A stretch of 64,000 nt of DNA from Naegleria gruberi (lineage: Eukaryota), in NCBI GenBank assembly GCA_000004985.1, contig GG738862.1. The stretch is one strand, 5' to 3'. A program made the translations under genes and the position numbers. The stretch's first letter is position 1; each line of letters starts with the position of its first letter. The notes beneath the pieces are model-generated. The model had not been told where the DNA came from and searched no databases. It saw only the letters and a list, made by a program, of their open reading frames with translations. Positions 20,966-59,918 of the stretch are shown one piece after another.

Positions 20966-21038
20966 ACGCCCACCGTGGGGGTCGAACCCACGACCACAAG
21001 GTTAAGAGCCTTGCGCTCTACCGACTGAGCTAGACGGG
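20966..21038 (-). tRNA. tRNA-Lys (anticodon CUU)
   Basis: The reverse complement 'GCCCGTCTAGCTCAGTCGGTAGAGCGCAAGGCTCTTAACCTTGTGGTCGTGGGTTCGACCCCCACGGTGGGCG' folds as a cloverleaf. It has a 7-bp acceptor stem (two G-U pairs), a GTCGGTAGAGC D-loop, a CTCTTAA anticodon loop and a GGTTCGA T-loop. Confidence 0.9.
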
Positions 21039-21633
21039 CTACATTTGTTCTTATTAAAATATCTAAATACTTGATTCAACCTTACATAATAGGAGTAAAA
21101 ATATCCAACATTAATAAATGTGTTGAGTTTTGATTAATAGTTTCGAAACCAGTGACAAAGATACTGTAATATTGGAAGTTATTAATGCTTAACAGGACAG
21201 TAACAGCACTTAATGTTTTTTTTTGTTATAATGGAATAACTAATACGTTAATAATTATAGTGACATGGCTTCTTTAGAACTGCTATATCCACAAAACAGC
21301 AATAAGAATGTTTTACTGTAAAACTATACAATTCAATAAATTGTAACAATTTGTTAAAGTAACACAATAAGGGTATATCTTTATTATTTGACATTTAAAT
21401 AGAGGTTCTCATGAATAGTGCGACATTTACTAATCGAGAGTTGTGGAACAATTTGTTGCAAGTTTACCACAATGTGAAAGAGATGAAGCACAACAAGAAA
21501 TTGTCCACTATTCTGAAAAGATTAGTTCCTCTCCATATTTTCACAAGATTATTAACTTGGACTTGTCGAGCTCATTAGTTTCTAATCAATTGAATATTGT
21601 TAGCAAGATTTTAACCAATTTGATTAATTTACT

Positions 21634-51772: not shown

Positions 51773-54133
51773 TTGGATATAGAAATGGATGAATTTATAG
51801 TAAATACAGTTACAGATACTATTGAAAATGTAATAGTATCATTTAAATGTAAAAGTTATTGGTTTATTTCATTTGATGGTGTTGCAACTAAATCTAAAAG
51901 ACTTTTACAAAGAGATAATAGAGCTAAAACTTCACGTAAATCAAATAAACAGTTATTTAATAATAATAATAATAATATAGATGATAATAATAATATAGAT
52001 GATAATATAGATGATAATAATATAGATGATGAACAAGTTGATAAAGAAGATCTCATTGAAGATAAAGAAGATTTCATTGAACAAGATGATAATAATATTA
52101 TTATTATTGAAAAAGAACAAGATGAATTAAATGATGATGAACAAGATGAAAATCCAAAAAAAAGAAAATTAAATGATGATATCAATGAAGAGAATGATAA
52201 TAATATTAATAATAATAATACTACTCCTATAACAAATATATCTAATAATAATACAAATACTAATAATAATAATATAAATAATAATAATAATATAAATATA
52301 GATAATGTAGAATGTAAAAGATCATTAAGTGTAGAAATATCACCTGGTACAAATTTAAGTAAATTAATGTATGAATCAATAACTAAATTAACATACCAAA
52401 TATGTAAAAAATTAAAAATAGATATATATGTATCATCTACTAATAGATCAGGTGAAGGTGAAACTAAAATAATTGAACATTTAAGACAATATTCTAAAAA
52501 TAATACATTACCTAAATCAGTATTAATTATATCACAAGATTCAGATATGATTTTAATACCATTAATTAATTCAGATATTAATTGTTCTTTTTATATTTTA
52601 ATACCAAATTCAATACAACATTTTAAATCTGGTAATTTTATTGATGTTACAAGTTTTAAATTATTTTTATATAATTTTATTTCTAAAAATAAATTTAAAA
52701 AAATAGATAATTCTAATATAAATAGTAATTATTCTATAAATAATTATAAAAATATTCATCAATTATGTTTAGATTTTGTTAGTATTACATTATTAGCAGG
52801 TGGATGTGATTATTTTAGATATTTTCAAAAAGGATTTATAAGAAATTGGAGAAATTATTTTAAATTAATTGAAAATTCATCTAATTTTAATATTTTTGAA
52901 TTAAATATTTTAAATAATTCAGAAATTGAATTTACAATTAATTGTAATAATTTTATATCTGTATTTGGAAGTAGAGTACCATATACACAAATGGAAATGA
53001 AAAGTGATCCAAATAATGCAATTTTATTTTTTAAACAATTATGTGCATGTATTTTACAATTTAAAGGAATAATTCCAATTATGGAATATTTTAATAATCA
53101 TTTAAAAATGATTGATGTTTTACATTTATTTTCTTTAAATAATAATTTTTATGAACAAGTTGAATTTACAAATAATAATAATATTACTAAATTTAGAAAA
53201 GTAATTACAAAAACATTTAAAGATAAAATTAAAATTTTAACAACAATTGAAGAATTAACAGATAAAACAAATTTAACTCCACTTGAAGGTTTAATTTCAA
53301 TGATTAATAATTTAAATTATCATGCATTACCAAATCAAAATTTAATTGAAATTTTTAAACATGAAGAATTATCTTTTATTTTAAATATAAATACAAAAAT
53401 GGAAAAAAAATATTGGACTTTAAATGATCCTTATTTAAAAATTAGAAATTTTATTAATGAATGGAAAATTAAATATTCAAATATTAATGATAATGAAATT
53501 AATAATATTAATACTGGTACTTTATATTTAAAATATAATGATTATAATAATATATTGACTTTTATGGAAGGTAATAGACCATTTATGGAATTTAATAATA
53601 TTGATTTAAATTTAAATTTAAATAATAATTATCATAAATATTTAAATATTTCAAATATAATTACTGCTCCTTCTATTGATCAAATTAATTTATTAAAATT
53701 ATTTGATGAAACTGATCCACATAAAAATTTAACTAAATTAGTTTATAAAAGACAAAGACGTCCTAATAATAATAATAGAAATAGAAATAATAGAAATAAT
53801 AATAATAGAAATAGAAATTATGATAGAAATGATAATTATGATAGAAATAGAAATGATAATAATAGAAGTAGAAATTATGATAGAAATTATGATAGAAATG
53901 ATAATAGAAATACTACTATTGAAGATAAGAATAATGATAAAAGTAGTTATGATAATAGAAGAGATGATAGAGATAATAATTATAGAAATTATGATAGAAA
54001 TTATGATAGAAATAGAAGTTATAATGATAATAGAAATGATAATAGAAATTATAATAATAATAATTATAAAAGAAGAGATAATAGAGGAAATACTTTTTAT
54101 AATGAAAGAAAAGATAATGATAGAAATAAATAA
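51773..54133 (+). CDS. XRN-family 5'-3' exoribonuclease-like protein with an Asn-rich insert and an Arg/Asn/Tyr/Asp-rich C-terminal tail. The N-terminus appears truncated.
   Basis: Conserved XRN motifs are present. 'FISFDGVATKSKRLLQRDNRAK' corresponds to 'IAIDGVAPRAKMNQQRSRRF'. 'SGEGETKIIEHLRQ' corresponds to 'PGEGEHKI'. 'LIISQDSDMILIPLI' corresponds to 'GLDADLIMLGL'. The roughly 60 aa normally upstream, including the 'DMNGIIH' motif, are absent from this ORF. Confidence 0.55.
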   Translation: MDIEMDEFIVNTVTDTIENVIVSFKCKSYWFISFDGVATKSKRLLQRDNRAKTSRKSNKQLFNNNNNNIDDNNNIDDNIDDNNIDDEQVDKEDLIEDKEDFIEQDDNNIIIIEKEQDELNDDEQDENPKKRKLNDDINEENDNNINNNNTTPITNISNNNTNTNNNNINNNNNINIDNVECKRSLSVEISPGTNLSKLMYESITKLTYQICKKLKIDIYVSSTNRSGEGETKIIEHLRQYSKNNTLPKSVLIISQDSDMILIPLINSDINCSFYILIPNSIQHFKSGNFIDVTSFKLFLYNFISKNKFKKIDNSNINSNYSINNYKNIHQLCLDFVSITLLAGGCDYFRYFQKGFIRNWRNYFKLIENSSNFNIFELNILNNSEIEFTINCNNFISVFGSRVPYTQMEMKSDPNNAILFFKQLCACILQFKGIIPIMEYFNNHLKMIDVLHLFSLNNNFYEQVEFTNNNNITKFRKVITKTFKDKIKILTTIEELTDKTNLTPLEGLISMINNLNYHALPNQNLIEIFKHEELSFILNINTKMEKKYWTLNDPYLKIRNFINEWKIKYSNINDNEINNINTGTLYLKYNDYNNILTFMEGNRPFMEFNNIDLNLNLNNNYHKYLNISNIITAPSIDQINLLKLFDETDPHKNLTKLVYKRQRRPNNNNRNRNNRNNNNRNRNYDRNDNYDRNRNDNNRSRNYDRNYDRNDNRNTTIEDKNNDKSSYDNRRDDRDNNYRNYDRNYDRNRSYNDNRNDNRNYNNNNYKRRDNRGNTFYNERKDNDRNK
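53760..54120 (+). repeat. coding low-complexity repeat (RN/YD-rich, 'RNYDRN'-type) at the C-terminus of the XRN-like gene
   Basis: Iterated 'agaaat(agaaat)...tatgatagaaat' units translate to 'NRNRNNRNNNNRNRNYDRNDNYDRNRNDNNRSRNYDRNYDRNDNRN...'. Confidence 0.7.
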
Positions 54134-54401: not shown

Positions 54402-55774
54402 TCAATTAAATAATTCATAAATAGGTCTAAATGATTTTTGTTGAATAACTTGTGGTATTTCTAATAAACCTCTCAATGCTTTTAAAATATCAATACCTAA
54501 TAAAACACCTAACATTCCAGCTAAATCTCCTAATAATTGTAACATTGTTTTACCTGCAATTTCACTAACTTGATGAATATTTAAAGTAGAATAAGCAAAT
54601 GAAACAACAACAATTGAATCTTCTTTAAAAGTTAATTGTACATTTGAAATACGTGAATCCCAATGTATTGAATGTAATGGATATTCTTCAGTTGATTTTA
54701 ATCTATTAGTTTCAATTTTAGTTAAAGTAAAGAAATTATCAACGTATGGTATTGCAAAATTAGTTTCAGCAAAAACTAGTGGAATTGAACCAATTTCATG
54801 AAATGATGCTTGTAATCCAAATCTTGAATCTCTATCAGATTTTACAGGTGGTAATGTAAAATACATTGAAATACTACCACCATATCCTGTTGTTTTAACT
54901 GCTAATGGTTTACTTGTATCATTATTAAATACATAACATTGAAATACTTGTCCATTTTGTTCAATTACTGTTTCACTTAATTTAAATGGACATTCATATA
55001 TTGTACCATCTGTATCATTCACCATTGTACATGTTTTTAATGTTAAATTACAATAATCACAATAATATTCTGCATTCCAATTACATATTGTTACTATTTA
55101 ATTATATTATTATATTTTAATTATATTATTATATTTTTAAATTATTATGTATTTATATTATTAATTATTTTAATATTTTAATATTAATTATTATATTTTA
55201 ATAATAAAAATAACATACCAGCAGGATAATTTAAAGGTACTTGTTCAATATAAGAAATAGAAGTGGATGGATTTGTTTGTGCATCTAAATAACCATTTAT
55301 AGAAGAATATAAATAAAATAAATAAACACCAATACATATTAACCATCCAATTGATGTTATAATTTCAGATATTCTTACACCTGTTCTTATTTGTAAACAA
55401 TCTGCATGATCATTTTGTGATTCTAAATCATCTCCATCTCCATCTTCATATTTATGTATATTTTTAACTCTAGGTGTTAATACTTTTGAAAGTGTATCTA
55501 ATGTTGTTGAGTGATGTTGTTGATGTTGTATTTCCTTATTAAATGATTGATTATTATTTGTATTTTTCATTAAATTATTATTTTGTTGTTGTTGAGATTC
55601 AGGATAATCAATACAACAATTATTATCCATTTCAACTTGTATCGGAGGTTGTGGTTCAAAATCATCTAATGTTGGAAGCCTACTTGATGCTACATGTGAT
55701 GTTTGAGCCTTATATCCATCTTGATTTGTTGTTGTTGTAGATGTTACTGAGGTATTAAGATTATTATTCTTCAT
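54402..55774 (-). CDS. DEG/ENaC/ASIC-family cation channel homolog. Exons 55219-55774 and 54402-55093, with a 125-nt AT-rich intron and a GTATGT donor.
   Basis: TM1 is 'IITSIGWLICIGVYLFYLY'. Splicing recreates the family hallmark 'YPA|VTICNWN' (FPAVTICN in ENaC/ASIC). TM2 'LLGDLAGMLGVLLGIDILKAL' aligns with ASIC '[23 protein letters not shown]'. The two-transmembrane, large-ectodomain topology fits. Confidence 0.8.
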
Positions 55775-57353
55775 TTATTGTTGATGTTAATGTTGGATGT
55801 AGTAGTTGTTGTATATATATATTAATTGATTATTTCATGAATTGGATGTTGTGTTGTTTTTTTCATTTTATGAAATATACAGGTTTTGGCGCCATGCAAC
55901 TACAAGTTCACGGTTTAGCTAATTTTGGGTTGTTTAACTGCGCACCTGTTTGAGGGAATCAAGGCTAACTGTAGAAATATATCTAGAACTGGTTGATCAT
56001 CCTTTGAATTCATTTTACATCTCCAATAATTCAAAATAATAACCTTCTTTCCAAGCAATTATTTAATACATCATCAATTACAACAAATGAGTCAGTTATG
56101 GAAATATTATCATTTATTGTGGAAGCAAAGTTAAACAAAACTCAATCACAAAGTTTGATTTAAATCAACTTCACAAGTTATTACCTCCTTGTAATCTTCC
56201 AAATCATACTTCAAGAGTTTACTTTTGTGAAGAATCAGTTTCAAAACATTCTCAAACAATTTGTGAAATATTTGATATTAACAAATTCTAGACCCCTAGA
56301 AAGACATGAAAAGGAAGTAATTTCAGATTTATTGTGCCTTGACAATGAATATTAGATTCGTACTAACAGAAGATTCAAGCTAGGACAACTCCAGTATTTG
56401 GACATGAGCCGAATAATTTAACAGATTGAAATAATGAAAGTTGCTTCAAGCTAACACCAAGGTGAAAAGTCCTTTGTTTAAAATTGATATTATTACTTAT
56501 AATAAGTTGATACAACTATATTGTTACCATTATCTGGTGTCATGTTTGGGACGGTATAAGAGGATGTCCAAAACTAAAATACACTTTAAAACTAGAAGGC
56601 TGCAGATTACAATAGGTTTACATGCATTTTGCGCTGAATGTTTGACAGGCGATAAAATAAGTAGATGATATCTAGATACACATTATACTGTTGTATTTCA
56701 ACATACATATACATACATTCAACAACTGTTGATTACCGTACAATCTAGTGATAATTACAAGTATCAACTAGGATAAACACTACCGCGACATAGATACCAT
56801 GTACTTCACAAGAAAATGATTTATCACTGAATATTGGTGCCGTAAGCGAGTGTATGCATATTTAGTGTATGTCCAACTTAGAGTGTATCTTATATAACAT
56901 ACTATATCTAATACAGTTATGGTATTGGAATAGCCATTCTTCTCGGGTTGACAATATTAGCTCAAGGTTTACTCTAGGGTGCACCAAAATTAAGTTTTCA
57001 GGATATGAGATGTTTGCTTTGAACTACTAGTACAAAACAACCCTATCAGTTGTTTTACTCTCTAGTTTGGAATACTTGTATTACAGGAATCTTCGAAGAG
57101 TATTTGGCAATTTTTTGTTATATATACTATTTCTTGTATTCAGAGAACCTGCCACTAACGAATTCTTGTCAATTAATAACCACAATATTTCAATCACTTC
57201 TTTTCACCTACGACCACAAAGGAAGATTGGTTAATAGCATTCTCTAGAAACATTTCTTGTGGTCAGCTTGTGTCGTTCTTTGCCAAAGAAGGTTACATCA
57301 ATTCCTAAATTGCGCTATTAGGATAAATTCCATTCTGAAAAGTTTTAAAAAAC

Positions 57354-59918
57354 ATGTCATTACACGATGATCAATTATCCTCCTCTATTACAACTCCCCA
57401 ACAAGATGATGATATTAATAATAAAGATATTGTTGATGAATTGAATAAATATGATATTAATAATAATAATATATTTGGTTATAATAAACAAATAAATAAA
57501 AAACAAATTATATATGGATGTGGTGATGGATTTTGGAAGAAACAAACCGATATAATATCAATTACTAAATTAACAAATTTTGATAAAATAGATTATTTAC
57601 AAAATTATATATTAAATGATAAAATAATTAAATTTAAATGTAAAGATCAATTATGTATATTTCTTACTAGTAATGGAAATGTATATAAAATGGGACAATG
57701 TACATTTATAAATAATTGTACAAATATTCCAACATTAATTAATAATTTTAAAAATGATAAAATTATTGATTTTTCNNNNNNNNNNNNNNNNNNNNNNNNN
57801 NNNNNNNNNNNNNNNNNNNNNNNNNNNNNNNNNNNNNNNNNNNNNNNNNNNNNNNNNNNNNNNNNNNNNNNNNNNNNNNNNNNNNNNNNNNNNNNNNNNN
57901 NNNNNNNNNNNNNNNNNNNNNNNNNNNNNNNNNNNNNNNNNNNNNNNNNNNNNNNNNNNNNNNNNNNNNNNNNNNNNNNNNNNNNNNNNNNNNNNNNNNN
58001 NNNNNNNNNNNNNNNNNNNNNNNNNNCTTTTATAGAATATAAAAAAAATGGTAAATATCAAGTTGACTATTTTTATACTTTAAATTTTACAAATATTACT
58101 AAAATAGTAAAAGAATGTAATAAAAATAAAAATATATTTATTAATAATAATAAAATACAAGATATTAAAGATATTCAATGTAATGGTATTAATACTATAA
58201 TTATTTATAATGATAATACAAATATATTATCTCCTTTATTTAATGATTATTATAATCCAATTAAAAATGAAATTATTTTAAATAAAGTTTATAATAATTT
58301 TATTTTTGAAAATGTATATCAAAAATTAATTTTAAATGAATATCAAATTTTATATTTAAATAATAATAATGAATGTAAATTTATTGATTATAATGGTAAT
58401 TTATTTAAAATGGATAATATTATAAATATGGAAAGTGGTACATTTCATAGTTTTTTACAAACTATTGATAATAAATTTTATTCATTTGGATCTAATGAAT
58501 TTGGTGAATTAGGATATAATAAGAAATTTAATGAATTAAAACAAGTTGAATTACCATTTACTATTAAGGAAGGTGATAATGTTCAAATTTGTTGTGGTAA
58601 AAATTTTACTATTTTAATACATGAAACAGATAATGATGAAATATTTAAAATTAATAATTTAATTGTAACTGATAATTTTAATTTTAATTATGAAATTAAT
58701 TCAAATTTTTATTTAAATTTAAATTTATTAAAAAATATTTCCAATGATTTTTATAATTTAATTACAAATAATAATATAATTGAATATTTAAATGAAAATG
58801 ATCAAAAAGCATTATATTATTTAATTAAAAATGCATTAATTAATTTAAATAATTTAACTAATTTAGATGAATTATTTATTAATTATGATAAATTTATAAA
58901 ATTAATTTCCTTTAATGAAATTGAATTAAATTTAGTAACATGTCTATTTATATTAAATGATATAAATGATATTAATAATGAAATTAAATTATTATTATTT
59001 AATGATCTATCAAATAGAATTAATATTGATAATATTATGAATATTTTACAAAAAGTTAATAATTATCTTTCTTTAAATATTTTAAAACAATCTAAAAATA
59101 GTATTTTATTATTATTAGCAAATAAATGTTTAGCATTTATTAAAGAAAATGAAAAATTATTAAAATCAGAAAAATTATTTGAAATTATTAAAGATAAATT
59201 ATTAAATATTAAAAAATCATTTAAACAAATTATTTATAAAATTGATAATATTACTACTATAAATGGAATTGATAATAATATTAAAAATATAAATGAATCA
59301 TTAAAATTATTATATAATAATAATGAAAATAATGATATTAAAATTATAATTGATGAAAATTCAAATGAAATATTATATTTACATAAAAGTATATTATCTA
59401 TTCATAGTCCAGTTTTAAATATTTTATTTAAAAATTTAAATATTAATGAAATTAATTTATATGAATTTATTGAAATGATGATATCAGATGAATGGATAAT
59501 TAATTTATTTAAATATTCAAATAAAATTAATGAAATATTAAAAATAATATTTAAATTATGTTATGGATATAAATTAAATAATTTAAATTTAAATAATTTA
59601 ATTGGTATTTTAATTATTTCACAACAATTAGATATTACATGGTTAATTAAATATACATGTAATTTAATTATTGAAAAATTTAATGAAATTAATGATACTG
59701 AATTTATTTTATTACTAAATTTAGTATCAATTTCACAAAATAATAATAATTGTAAAGAATTTGTTGAATATTTTAAAATATTTTGTTCAAATAATTTATC
59801 ATTTGATTATTTACAAAAAATACAATCAGTTTGTAAAGATAATCAATCATGTGATAATTTTATTAAAATTATTATTGATTATTATTTAAGAGTACATACT
59901 ATAAATAGAAAATATTAA
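57354..59918 (+). CDS. RCC1-repeat + BTB/POZ-domain protein (RCBTB-like). It contains an assembly gap.
   Basis: The N-terminal part has RCC1-like blades ('IIYGCGDGFW', 'FGSNEFGELGYN', 'VQICCGKNFTILI'). The C-terminal part has a BTB domain ('DIKIIIDENSNEILYLHKSILSIHSPVLNILFKN...INLYEFIEMM'). An N-run at 57776-58026 lies inside the CDS. Confidence 0.55.
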   Translation: MSLHDDQLSSSITTPQQDDDINNKDIVDELNKYDINNNNIFGYNKQINKKQIIYGCGDGFWKKQTDIISITKLTNFDKIDYLQNYILNDKIIKFKCKDQLCIFLTSNGNVYKMGQCTFINNCTNIPTLINNFKNDKIIDFXXXXXXXXXXXXXXXXXXXXXXXXXXXXXXXXXXXXXXXXXXXXXXXXXXXXXXXXXXXXXXXXXXXXXXXXXXXXXXXXXXXXXFIEYKKNGKYQVDYFYTLNFTNITKIVKECNKNKNIFINNNKIQDIKDIQCNGINTIIIYNDNTNILSPLFNDYYNPIKNEIILNKVYNNFIFENVYQKLILNEYQILYLNNNNECKFIDYNGNLFKMDNIINMESGTFHSFLQTIDNKFYSFGSNEFGELGYNKKFNELKQVELPFTIKEGDNVQICCGKNFTILIHETDNDEIFKINNLIVTDNFNFNYEINSNFYLNLNLLKNISNDFYNLITNNNIIEYLNENDQKALYYLIKNALINLNNLTNLDELFINYDKFIKLISFNEIELNLVTCLFILNDINDINNEIKLLLFNDLSNRINIDNIMNILQKVNNYLSLNILKQSKNSILLLLANKCLAFIKENEKLLKSEKLFEIIKDKLLNIKKSFKQIIYKIDNITTINGIDNNIKNINESLKLLYNNNENNDIKIIIDENSNEILYLHKSILSIHSPVLNILFKNLNINEINLYEFIEMMISDEWIINLFKYSNKINEILKIIFKLCYGYKLNNLNLNNLIGILIISQQLDITWLIKYTCNLIIEKFNEINDTEFILLLNLVSISQNNNNCKEFVEYFKIFCSNNLSFDYLQKIQSVCKDNQSCDNFIKIIIDYYLRVHTINRKY
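57776..58026. other. assembly gap (251 N)
   Basis: A run of N characters in the sequence. Confidence 1.

What the first reader, a model, noticed from the sequence alone, without database searches (positions are those of the whole stretch)
54402..55774. DEG/ENaC/ASIC-type channel in a unicellular, non-metazoan genome
The spliced product has the family-defining 'YPAVTICN' motif right after TM1. Its TM2 'LLGDLAGMLGVLLGIDIL' closely resembles the ASIC/ENaC pore helix. It also has the two-transmembrane, large-ectodomain topology, although it is compact at roughly 415 aa. DEG/ENaC channels are overwhelmingly metazoan. Only a few have been reported in protists, Naegleria among them. The selectivity-filter position (GAS in ENaC, here 'GMLG') and the absence of a long cysteine-rich thumb make the gating and selectivity of this homolog worth examining.
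Basis: partly seen in the sequence, partly recalled or inferred. Interest (0 to 1): 0.6.

Follow-up and report, generated by a model that had tools for sequence, protein, structure and literature searches.

The report
Compact Naegleria DEG/ENaC-type channel gene
This is a real two-exon gene of the amoeboflagellate Naegleria gruberi that encodes a stripped-down relative of animal ENaC/ASIC sodium channels; its presence in Naegleria is already on record, but nobody has tested what it does, and its minimal build resembles the proton-activated chloride channel PAC.

Summary
On the minus strand, exon 1 (55774-55219), a 125-nt GT..AG intron and exon 2 (55093-54402) give a 415-aa protein with two transmembrane helices. 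YPAVTICN spans the splice junction.

The window is Naegleria gruberi. The gene is NAEGRDRAFT_66414 (XP_002678414, UniProt D2VC18), which already carries PF00858.

New details:
- The public model removes a false 51-nt intron, deleting 17 residues of TM1.
- The GAS filter aligns with G385-I386-D387, not with 'GMLG'.
- There is no HG motif and no finger, thumb or knuckle, only the beta core plus two helices.
- N. gruberi has at least 9 paralogs.
- About 100 clusters of similar compact proteins exist in other protists and metagenomes, almost all with G-x-D-x-x-K.
- A profile of this compact family also detects PAC/TMEM206 (E 1e-7 to 1e-11).

Ion selectivity and gating stimulus remain unknown.

The parts
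55219..55774 (-). Exon 1. It encodes residues 1-185 plus the first base of codon 186: a low-complexity cytoplasmic N-terminus, TM1 and the start of beta1.
   Evidence: ORF list and splice reconstruction. tblastn of the spliced protein back to the window gives 100% identity. An in-frame TAA lies directly upstream of the ATG.
55094..55218 (-). Intron, 125 nt, GTATGT...AAATAG, very AT-rich.
   Evidence: Removing it restores the frame and the YPAVTICN motif, which is uninterrupted in all homologs. The public model XP_002678414 uses the same intron.
54402..55093 (-). Exon 2. It encodes the rest of codon 186 through residue 415 plus the stop codon (54402-54404): the ectodomain beta core, TM2 and the conserved C-terminal tail ...RPIYELFN.
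55295..55372 (-). TM1 (about residues 135-160, ISEIITSIGWLICIGVYLFYLYSSIN).
   Evidence: Kyte-Doolittle scan. It aligns to ASIC5/ASIC2 TM1. A long helix sits at the equivalent place in the AlphaFold model of the N. lovaniensis ortholog.
55285..55335 (-). A 51-nt GT..AG stretch that the public gene model splices out. It is most likely coding sequence (17 residues of TM1, CIGVYLFYLYSSINGYL).
   Evidence: Deleting it reproduces XP_002678414 exactly. All Naegleria and Willaertia homologs keep these residues, including an invariant Tyr.
55080..55228 (-). Post-TM1 family motif Y183-P-A-V-T-I-C189-N190. Codon V186 is split by the intron, so the range includes the intron.
   Evidence: It aligns to 'FPAVTxCN' of ASIC5, ASIC2 and ASIC1. 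The Cys column is invariant across 47 compact family members.
54459..54545 (-). TM2, the putative pore helix (residues 369-397, MLQLLGDLAGMLGVLLGIDILKALRGLLE).
   Evidence: Hydropathy. It aligns to ASIC1, ASIC2 and ASIC5 TM2. It is a helix in both models.
54489..54497 (-). G385-I386-D387, the equivalent of the G-A-S selectivity-filter belt of ASIC/ENaC. K390 follows three residues later.
   Evidence: Residue-by-residue alignments to ASIC2 and ASIC5. A motif census shows G-(I/L/V)-D in nearly all compact relatives against G-x-S in long canonical ones.

Best explanation
The locus is NAEGRDRAFT_66414 of Naegleria gruberi. It is a two-exon gene for a 415-aa subunit of a DEG/ENaC-superfamily channel in its most reduced form.

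Shown:
- The protein has a disordered cytoplasmic N-terminus and then TM1.
- A ~208-aa extracellular domain follows. It consists only of the roughly 12-stranded palm/beta-ball core, with the family's conserved Cys pair (C189 in VTICN, C238 in CYVFNN).
- A Gly-rich TM2 and a short conserved C-terminal tail complete the protein.

Inferred:
- Like all solved relatives (ASIC, ENaC, FaNaC, PAC), it assembles as a homo- or heterotrimer with some of the 8 or more paralogs. TM2 lines a central pore.
- It is opened by rearrangement of the palm strands beta1 and beta12, which run directly into TM1 and TM2.
- The finger/thumb acidic pocket and the HG re-entrant loop are absent. The sensor must therefore sit in the beta core or wrist, as it does in PAC.
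- The degenerin-site Gly (G374), the following Asp (D375) and the Gly at the amiloride-block position (G381) are kept. These assignments use ASIC/ENaC numbering from my own knowledge.
- The filter Ser is an Asp (D387), followed by a family-wide Lys (K390). The acidic residues of lower ASIC TM2 are replaced by R393 and L396.

My best guess is a non-voltage-gated channel that is cation-permeable but poorly Na+-selective, and possibly Ca2+-permeable. It would sit in the plasma membrane of a freshwater amoeba and be gated or modulated by extracellular pH, ionic conditions or membrane tension. Selectivity and stimulus are guesses, not results.
For: - Gene structure and protein.
- Identity with XP_002678414 / D2VC18 of N. 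gruberi.
- Pfam ASC at 32.9 bits against a 23.6 cut-off, E 4.8e-8, in three stretches.
- PDB sequence hits are ASIC5, ASIC2, ASIC1, BRTNaC1, ENaC and (weakly) PAC among channels; the only other rows are two carotenoid 9,10-dioxygenase chains at E 1.8.
- A family profile reaches ASIC5 at E 3e-19 and ENaC alpha at 1e-14.
- AlphaFold models with pLDDT 80-82 show TM1, 11-12 strands and TM2, with no helical subdomains.
- In Foldseek, ASIC and PAC are all at about E 1e-11.
- The gene is conserved in N. fowleri, N. lovaniensis and Willaertia magna at 43-64% identity. There are multiple N. gruberi paralogs, some adjacent.
- Positive-inside charge distribution, three glycosylation sequons and six Cys in the loop.
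Against: - No functional, expression or localisation data were found. A literature search for the locus tag returned nothing.
- Trimer formation was not modelled.
- The hallmarks tied to Na+ selectivity and gating in animal channels are missing: the G-x-S filter, the HG motif, and the lower-TM2 Glu/Asp.
- The lower pore carries K390 and R393, so cation selectivity is not secure.
Confidence: 0.85

Rival explanations
1. It is a PAC-like anion channel. It would have the same minimal trimeric beta-core architecture, but basic residues in lower TM2 (K390, R393) would make the pore anion-selective, as K319 does in PAC.
For: - Foldseek ranks PAC/ASOR structures level with ASIC. It covers PAC more completely (target TM-score about 0.6 against 0.4).
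- The compact-family profile hits PAC sequences at E 9e-12 to 4e-6.
- hhalign to a 15-species PAC profile gives 88% probability over 259 colinear columns.
- K at filter +3 is conserved across the whole family.
- In one alignment D387 falls on PAC K319.
Against: - There is no Pfam TMEM206 hit even at E 10, whereas ASC passes its cut-off.
- Identity to PAC in structural alignment is 8%, against 15-18% for ENaC/ASIC.
- The TM2 register against PAC differs by two residues between HMMER and hhalign, so the D387/K319 match is unreliable.
- The conserved pore residue is acidic (Asp).
- The PAC pH-sensor His98 position is Asn here.
Confidence: 0.15
2. It has the channel fold but is not a channel. It could be an auxiliary or sensor subunit, an adhesion or receptor protein, or a decaying paralog in a multigene family.
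For: - No experimental data exist.
- The canonical gating and selectivity motifs (HG, G-x-S) are absent.
- The many paralogs leave room for sub- or non-functionalisation.
Against: - The reading frame is intact and the splice sites are canonical.
- Conservation of TM2 and the beta core is strong across genera and across about 100 sequence clusters. This argues for purifying selection on the pore helix.
- The Gly-rich TM2 pattern is that of pore-forming subunits.
Confidence: 0.1
3. It belongs to an unrelated two-TM trimeric family (P2X), or it is contaminating or recently transferred animal DNA.
For: P2X shares the two-TM, large-loop topology.
Against: - P2X does not appear in the Pfam scan at E up to 10, in the PDB sequence searches or in the fold searches.
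- The gene sits in AT-rich Naegleria sequence with a Naegleria-type intron.
- It lies on a 502-kb N. gruberi scaffold.
- It has orthologs in three other heteroloboseans.
- It groups away from the long animal-type channels, whose clade has 100/100 support.
Confidence: 0.01

Closest known systems
Acid-sensing ion channels and ENaC (DEG/ENaC superfamily, Pfam ASC PF00858; e.g. chicken ASIC1 6AVE, human ENaC 6WTH)
   Same: - The two-TM topology.
- The FPAVTxCN motif after TM1, with its Cys partnered by C-Y-x-F-N.
- The 12-strand palm/beta-ball core.
- The Gly-rich TM2 LLGDxxGxxGxxxGxx.
- The degenerin-site Gly.
   Different: - The ectodomain is about 208 aa instead of about 370-500. No finger, thumb or knuckle helices are present, and there are only 6 ectodomain Cys.
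- There is no HG motif before TM1.
- The filter is G-I-D instead of G-A/S-S.
- The lower-TM2 acidic residues (ASIC1 E451, D454) are replaced by Arg and Leu.
- The protein has a conserved C-terminal ...FN tail.
Proton-activated chloride channel PAC / TMEM206 / ASOR (e.g. 7JNA, 8H8D, 7JI3)
   Same: - Same size class (about 290 core residues) and the same minimal build: a beta core flanked by two TM helices with almost no peripheral domains.
- Foldseek E about 1e-11 with TM-score about 0.6 in both directions.
- A profile of the compact protist family detects PAC sequences at E 1e-7 to 1e-11.
   Different: - No match to the Pfam TMEM206 model.
- Only 8% identity in structural alignment.
- PAC lacks the FPAVTxCN and CYxFN motifs and the Gly-rich TM2.
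- PAC's His98 sensor and Lys319 selectivity residue are not conserved in a reliable register.
- PAC is reported only from deuterostomes (bioRxiv 10.1101/2022.06.28.497943).
Other non-animal DEG/ENaC homologs reported in Cafeteria (heterokont), Symbiodinium and Tunicaraptor (PMC10507113)
   Same: They are uncharacterised DEG/ENaC-family genes in unicellular eukaryotes, identified only by sequence.
   Different: Those were reported to cluster with the animal ASIC/ENaC superclusters. The Naegleria protein belongs to a separate set of compact sequences with G-x-D-x-x-K. I did not compare it directly with those published sequences.

Membership tests
DEG/ENaC (Pfam ASC, PF00858) | Significant match to the family profile above the curated gathering score | tested here: met
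   32.9 bits against a 23.6 cut-off, E 4.8e-8, in three stretches. All 47 compact relatives also match.
DEG/ENaC (Pfam ASC, PF00858) | Two transmembrane helices, cytoplasmic termini and a large extracellular loop | tested here: met
   Two hydrophobic segments at 135-160 and 369-397. The glycosylation sequons and Cys lie in the loop, and basic residues flank the cytoplasmic sides. Helices sit at both ends of the models. The orientation is inferred, not measured.
DEG/ENaC (Pfam ASC, PF00858) | Post-TM1 FPAVTxCN motif and its conserved Cys partner in C-Y-x-F-N | tested here: met
   YPAVTIC189N and QC238YVFNN. Both Cys columns are invariant in the 47-sequence alignment. Disulfide pairing itself was not examined.
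DEG/ENaC (Pfam ASC, PF00858) | Palm plus beta-ball beta-sheet core fold | tested here: met
DEG/ENaC (Pfam ASC, PF00858) | G-x-S selectivity filter in TM2 | tested here: not met
   G-A-S of ASIC aligns to G385-I386-D387. Compact relatives have G-(I/L/V)-D and long canonical ones have G-x-S.
DEG/ENaC (Pfam ASC, PF00858) | HG motif in the cytoplasmic pre-TM1 segment | tested here: not met
   There is no 'HG' anywhere in the protein. It is present at positions 17-60 in most, though not all, of the long canonical hits.
DEG/ENaC (Pfam ASC, PF00858) | Cys-rich thumb, finger and knuckle helical subdomains | tested here: not met
   The models contain no ectodomain helix longer than 4 residues. The ectodomain is about 208 aa with 6 Cys.
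DEG/ENaC (Pfam ASC, PF00858) | Trimeric assembly and an amiloride-sensitive cation current | not testable with these tools
   No multimer prediction or electrophysiology is available.
PAC / TMEM206 (Pfam PF15122) | Match to the TMEM206 family profile | tested here: not met
   No TMEM206 hit at E up to 10 for the window protein or for 10 distant relatives.
PAC / TMEM206 (Pfam PF15122) | Minimal beta core plus two-TM fold | tested here: met
PAC / TMEM206 (Pfam PF15122) | TM2 Lys (K319) for anion selectivity and His98 as pH sensor | tested here: inconclusive
   The His98 position aligns to Asn. The K319 register differs by 2 residues between the two alignments. K390 lies nearby but cannot be equated with K319.
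P2X receptors (Pfam PF00864) | Profile match or fold match | tested here: not met
   P2X is absent from the Pfam scan at E up to 10, from the PDB sequence searches and from both fold searches.

The most novel reading that the evidence does not exclude
The Naegleria protein represents a widespread, pre-metazoan 'minimal' clade of DEG/ENaC channels: the beta core plus two helices, a G-x-D-x-x-K pore motif, and no HG, finger, thumb or knuckle. This clade would link ASIC/ENaC and the proton-activated chloride channel PAC at the sequence level. If so, PAC and DEG/ENaC are divergent members of one ancient eukaryotic superfamily rather than convergent folds, and the animal channels are elaborations of this core.
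Probability: 0.45. Interest if true: 0.7.

Novelty: already known. Interest (0 to 1): 0.4.

Why it matters
The headline, a DEG/ENaC gene in a protist, is not news. The gene is a deposited N. gruberi protein that already carries the ASC domain. From my own knowledge, ENaC homologs in N. gruberi were reported by Studer et al. 2011 (PMID 21558422). That paper is not held in the library, so I could not check its content.

What could matter is the form of the protein. It shows how small a DEG/ENaC subunit can be, so it is a natural minimal system for asking which parts of the animal channels are needed for gating and selectivity.

Recent phylogenetic papers name only heterokonts and filasterean relatives as non-animal holders (PMC9822975, PMC10507113). 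They state that PAC has no discernible sequence relation to DEG/ENaC (PMC7904269, bioRxiv 10.1101/2022.06.28.497943). The compact family found here includes a malawimonad and many environmental sequences, and its profile reaches PAC. That makes the convergence-or-common-descent question testable.

N. fowleri, the brain-eating amoeba, has an ortholog.

Tried and rejected
I used the public model's core (same ectodomain and TM2, truncated TM1) and the N. lovaniensis ortholog instead.
- There is no second copy of the gene in the window (tblastn).
- P2X and other two-TM families are rejected.
- Pattern scans of viral contigs and of bacterial/archaeal genomes found no relative. These scans are low in sensitivity, and the wider alignment had no stretch conserved enough to scan with.
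- The AlphaFold-database fold library was not available, so I could not get named organisms for structural neighbours.
- The second word-indexed homolog search with the 47-sequence profile returned only 17 proteins because of the candidate cap.
- Literature: no open paper holds the locus tag. Only three open papers contain both 'Naegleria' and 'ENaC', and none of the passages I read in them discusses this gene. Studer 2011 and Hanukoglu 2016 are not held.
- The reciprocal search (vertebrate PAC profile against family members) is weak, at most 18 bits. The PAC link therefore rests on the forward profile search, its controls and profile-profile comparison.
- Equating D387 with PAC K319 is dropped as unreliable, because the two alignments disagree by two residues.
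- The NJ tree supports the canonical clade (100/100) but supports compact-clade monophyly only weakly (48/100).

Full report
**What is in the sequence**

The region 54402-55774 holds two minus-strand ORFs. Joining them at G|GTATGT...AAATAG|TA removes a 125-nt, very AT-rich intron (55218-55094). This gives a 1248-nt reading frame for a 415-aa protein. The splice creates the string YPAVTICN, with codon V186 split by the intron. An in-frame TAA lies immediately upstream of the ATG at 55774, and the stop codon is at 54404-54402. A tblastn of the spliced protein against the whole window finds only these two exons, so there is no second copy here.

Hydropathy shows exactly two membrane-length segments, at about residues 135-160 and 369-397. 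Between them is a ~208-residue loop with six Cys and three N-x-S/T sequons. Basic residues flank the sides that would face the cytoplasm.

**What family it belongs to**

- The protein passes the curated threshold of Pfam ASC (PF00858): 32.9 bits against 23.6, E 4.8e-8, in three stretches. No other family scores better than E 0.14.
- Against the sequences of all solved structures, the significant hits are ASIC5 and ASIC2. ASIC1, a centipede DEG/ENaC, ENaC-beta and, very weakly, PAC follow at E 0.04-1.5. The only rows outside these families are two carotenoid dioxygenase chains at E 1.8.
- A profile of the six Naegleria/Willaertia proteins gives the same picture at E about 1e-5.
- The matched stretches are TM1 plus 'FPAVTxCN', the 'CYxFN' strand, and the last palm strand plus TM2.
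- In these alignments LLGDLAGMLGVLLGIDIL lies on [18 protein letters not shown] of ASIC.

**Predicted structure**

I modelled two substitutes:

- the core of the public protein model, which has an identical ectodomain and TM2 (pLDDT 79.8);
- the core of the N. lovaniensis ortholog, which has an intact TM1 (pLDDT 81.7).

Both show a long TM1 helix, eleven to twelve beta strands, a long TM2 helix and a short C-terminal helix. No ectodomain helix is longer than four residues.

The protein is thus a DEG/ENaC-superfamily subunit reduced to the palm/beta-ball core and the two helices. It lacks the finger, thumb and knuckle.

**Which organism, and is this known**

The best database hit is 'predicted protein [Naegleria gruberi]': XP_002678414.1 / EFC45670.1 / UniProt D2VC18, locus NAEGRDRAFT_66414, on a 502-kb scaffold. 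It is identical apart from a 17-residue gap and already carries PF00858 in precomputed annotation.

From my own knowledge, Studer et al. 2011 (Physiol Genomics 43:844, PMID 21558422) reported ENaC/degenerin homologs in N. gruberi. The citation exists in reference lists, but the paper is not held and I could not check its content. No open-access paper holds the locus tag. Only three contain both 'Naegleria' and 'ENaC' as whole words, and none of the passages I read in them discusses the gene. Existence and family assignment are already known. Function is untested.

**A correction to the public gene model**

Deleting window 55335-55285 (51 nt, GT..AG) from my coding sequence reproduces XP_002678414 exactly. 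That deletion removes CIGVYLFYLYSSINGYL, the second half of TM1. All homologs from Naegleria, Willaertia and environmental samples keep this segment, including an invariant Tyr. The 398-aa database model is wrong at this point.

**The wider family**

N. gruberi has at least eight further copies:

- 64560 (two copies fused into one model);
- 64420 and 64421 (consecutive locus numbers on one 665-kb scaffold);
- 64710 and 64711 (consecutive locus numbers on one 613-kb scaffold);
- 62132 and 69903;
- a partial sequence.

N. fowleri, N. lovaniensis and Willaertia magna have orthologs.

An exhaustive profile search of 1.8 billion cluster representatives found 204 hits at E below 1e-3, 94 below 1e-10 and 49 below 1e-30.

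- The top hundred or so are either 290-400 aa long and match the whole profile in one piece, or are shorter fragments.
- Long (450-740 aa), animal-type channels appear only at E above 1e-9. They match in two or three pieces.
- Most compact hits are unnamed metagenome or metatranscriptome sequences, including TARA Oceans sequences.
- One is from the malawimonad Gefionella okellyi, and one is from an unidentified EukProt transcriptome.
- All 47 compact sequences I examined match Pfam ASC.

A motif census shows a clean split. The compact proteins nearly all have G-(I/L/V)-D at the filter position, followed by Lys three residues later, and they have no HG motif. The long ones have G-x-S and mostly an N-terminal HG. 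In a rough neighbour-joining tree rooted on PAC, the long channels form a clade in 100 of 100 bootstraps. The compact ones form a clade in only 48 of 100. The window protein sits with two environmental sequences inside the heterolobosean cluster.

**How it probably works**

Shown: the fold, the topology and the motifs.

Inferred from the solved relatives:

- It forms a trimer, with TM2 lining the pore.
- Gating is transmitted through palm strands beta1 and beta12, which continue into TM1 and TM2.
- The acidic pocket of ASIC is built from finger and thumb, which are absent here. Any pH or ligand sensor must therefore lie in the beta core or wrist, as in PAC.

In TM2, using ASIC/ENaC numbering from my own knowledge:

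- The degenerin-site Gly (G374), the following Asp (D375) and the Gly at the amiloride-block position six residues before the filter (G381) are retained.
- The filter Ser is Asp (D387).
- The lower-TM2 Glu/Asp of ASIC1 (E451, D454) correspond to R393 and L396.
- K390 is conserved throughout the compact family.

From memory, mutating the equivalent Ser of alpha-ENaC (S589) lets larger and divalent cations through (Kellenberger et al. 1999, unverified here). On that basis I guess a poorly selective, possibly Ca2+-permeable cation channel. The Lys and Arg below the Asp keep an anion-selective pore possible. The stimulus is unknown. For a freshwater amoeba whose differentiation responds to ionic conditions, the obvious candidates are pH, ionic strength or membrane tension.

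**The PAC connection (a side result)**

A profile of the 47 compact sequences, searched against all PDB sequences, hits the following:

- ASIC5 (3e-19), FaNaC (3e-18), ASIC1/2 (about 1e-17) and ENaC alpha/gamma/beta (1e-14 to 5e-11);
- the proton-activated chloride channel: Xenopus 8.7e-12, bovine 1.3e-7, human 2.5e-7, pufferfish 3.8e-6;
- the first unrelated protein only at E 0.3.

I confirmed my recalled human PAC sequence as 350/350 identical to 7JNA. The match consists of two colinear stretches at structurally equivalent places: TM1 with 'HPVMSVSY' on 'nPstsvsy', and the last strands with TM2.

Controls:

- Removing the low-complexity N-terminal columns leaves 31 bits (E 1e-6).
- Reversed PAC scores -1.3 bits.
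- 500 block-shuffles that keep the hydrophobic segments reach at most 5.7 bits.
- Three of the four sub-clades alone detect PAC weakly (E 0.005 to 3e-5); the fourth does not (E about 3).

Profile-profile comparison gives 66% probability against two PAC sequences. It gives 88% (E 3e-6, 259 colinear columns from TM1 to the C-terminus) against 15 vertebrate PACs.

The reciprocal search is weak: 18 bits at best, although compact proteins and not long channels top the list. The TM2 register differs by two residues between methods.

Published work calls the PAC/ASIC resemblance 'structural convergence' with no discernible sequence homology (PMC7904269). It also says PAC does not resemble DEG/ENaC in alignments (bioRxiv 10.1101/2022.06.28.497943). 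The compact protist family may be the missing intermediate. I rate this as likelier than not to be real homology, but not established.

**Verdict**

The finding is nevertheless the already-recorded Naegleria case, so its headline novelty is low.

The parts worth carrying forward are:

- the corrected gene model;
- the correct filter alignment (G-I-D with a conserved Lys, and no HG);
- the recognition that this is one member of a large compact clade outside animals;
- the statistically supported but still one-directional sequence link from that clade to PAC.

Noticed in passing
window 55285-55335 (minus strand): The public model XP_002678414 / D2VC18 splices out this 51-nt GT..AG stretch. That deletes 17 residues of TM1, which every homolog retains. 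It is very probably a gene-model error.
   Followed up: yes
not in the window; alignment A3 of compact relatives against PDB PAC/TMEM206 chains: A profile of the compact protist ASC-family proteins detects the proton-activated chloride channel PAC at E 1e-7 to 9e-12. hhalign gives 88% probability over 259 colinear columns. The literature describes PAC and DEG/ENaC as unrelated in sequence.
   Followed up: partly
N. gruberi scaffolds outside the window (proteins P0002, P0008, P0021, P0018, P0159, P0013, P0041, P0179): N. gruberi carries at least eight more copies of this gene family. They include two pairs with consecutive locus numbers on the same scaffolds (64420/64421 and 64710/64711) and one public model (64560) that fuses two tandem copies.
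   Followed up: partly
protein P0078 (EukProt, Gefionella okellyi) and P0094 cluster (TARA Oceans and other marine samples): Compact family members occur in a malawimonad and in marine plankton data. These lie beyond the heterokont and filasterean cases named in recent DEG/ENaC phylogenies.
   Followed up: partly
window 51773-54133 (+): The convergent neighbour is a 786-aa ORF with an XRN 5'-3' exonuclease N-terminal domain (E 1e-14). It has a long Asn/Arg/Asp-rich repetitive tail (NRNYDRN-type repeats) that ends about 270 nt from the channel gene's stop codon.
   Followed up: partly
window about 57780-58020: A run of N (an assembly gap) interrupts an 854-aa ORF (57354-59918, +). It contributes to the very low GC values reported for 58-60 kb.
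   Followed up: no
window 20967-21039 (-): A single tRNA-Lys (CTT) gene. It is the only Rfam match at gathering threshold in the whole window.
   Followed up: no
window 55860-55970: A short stretch upstream of the channel gene's start is noticeably more GC-rich than its surroundings. It has no Rfam match at gathering threshold and was not examined further.
   Followed up: no
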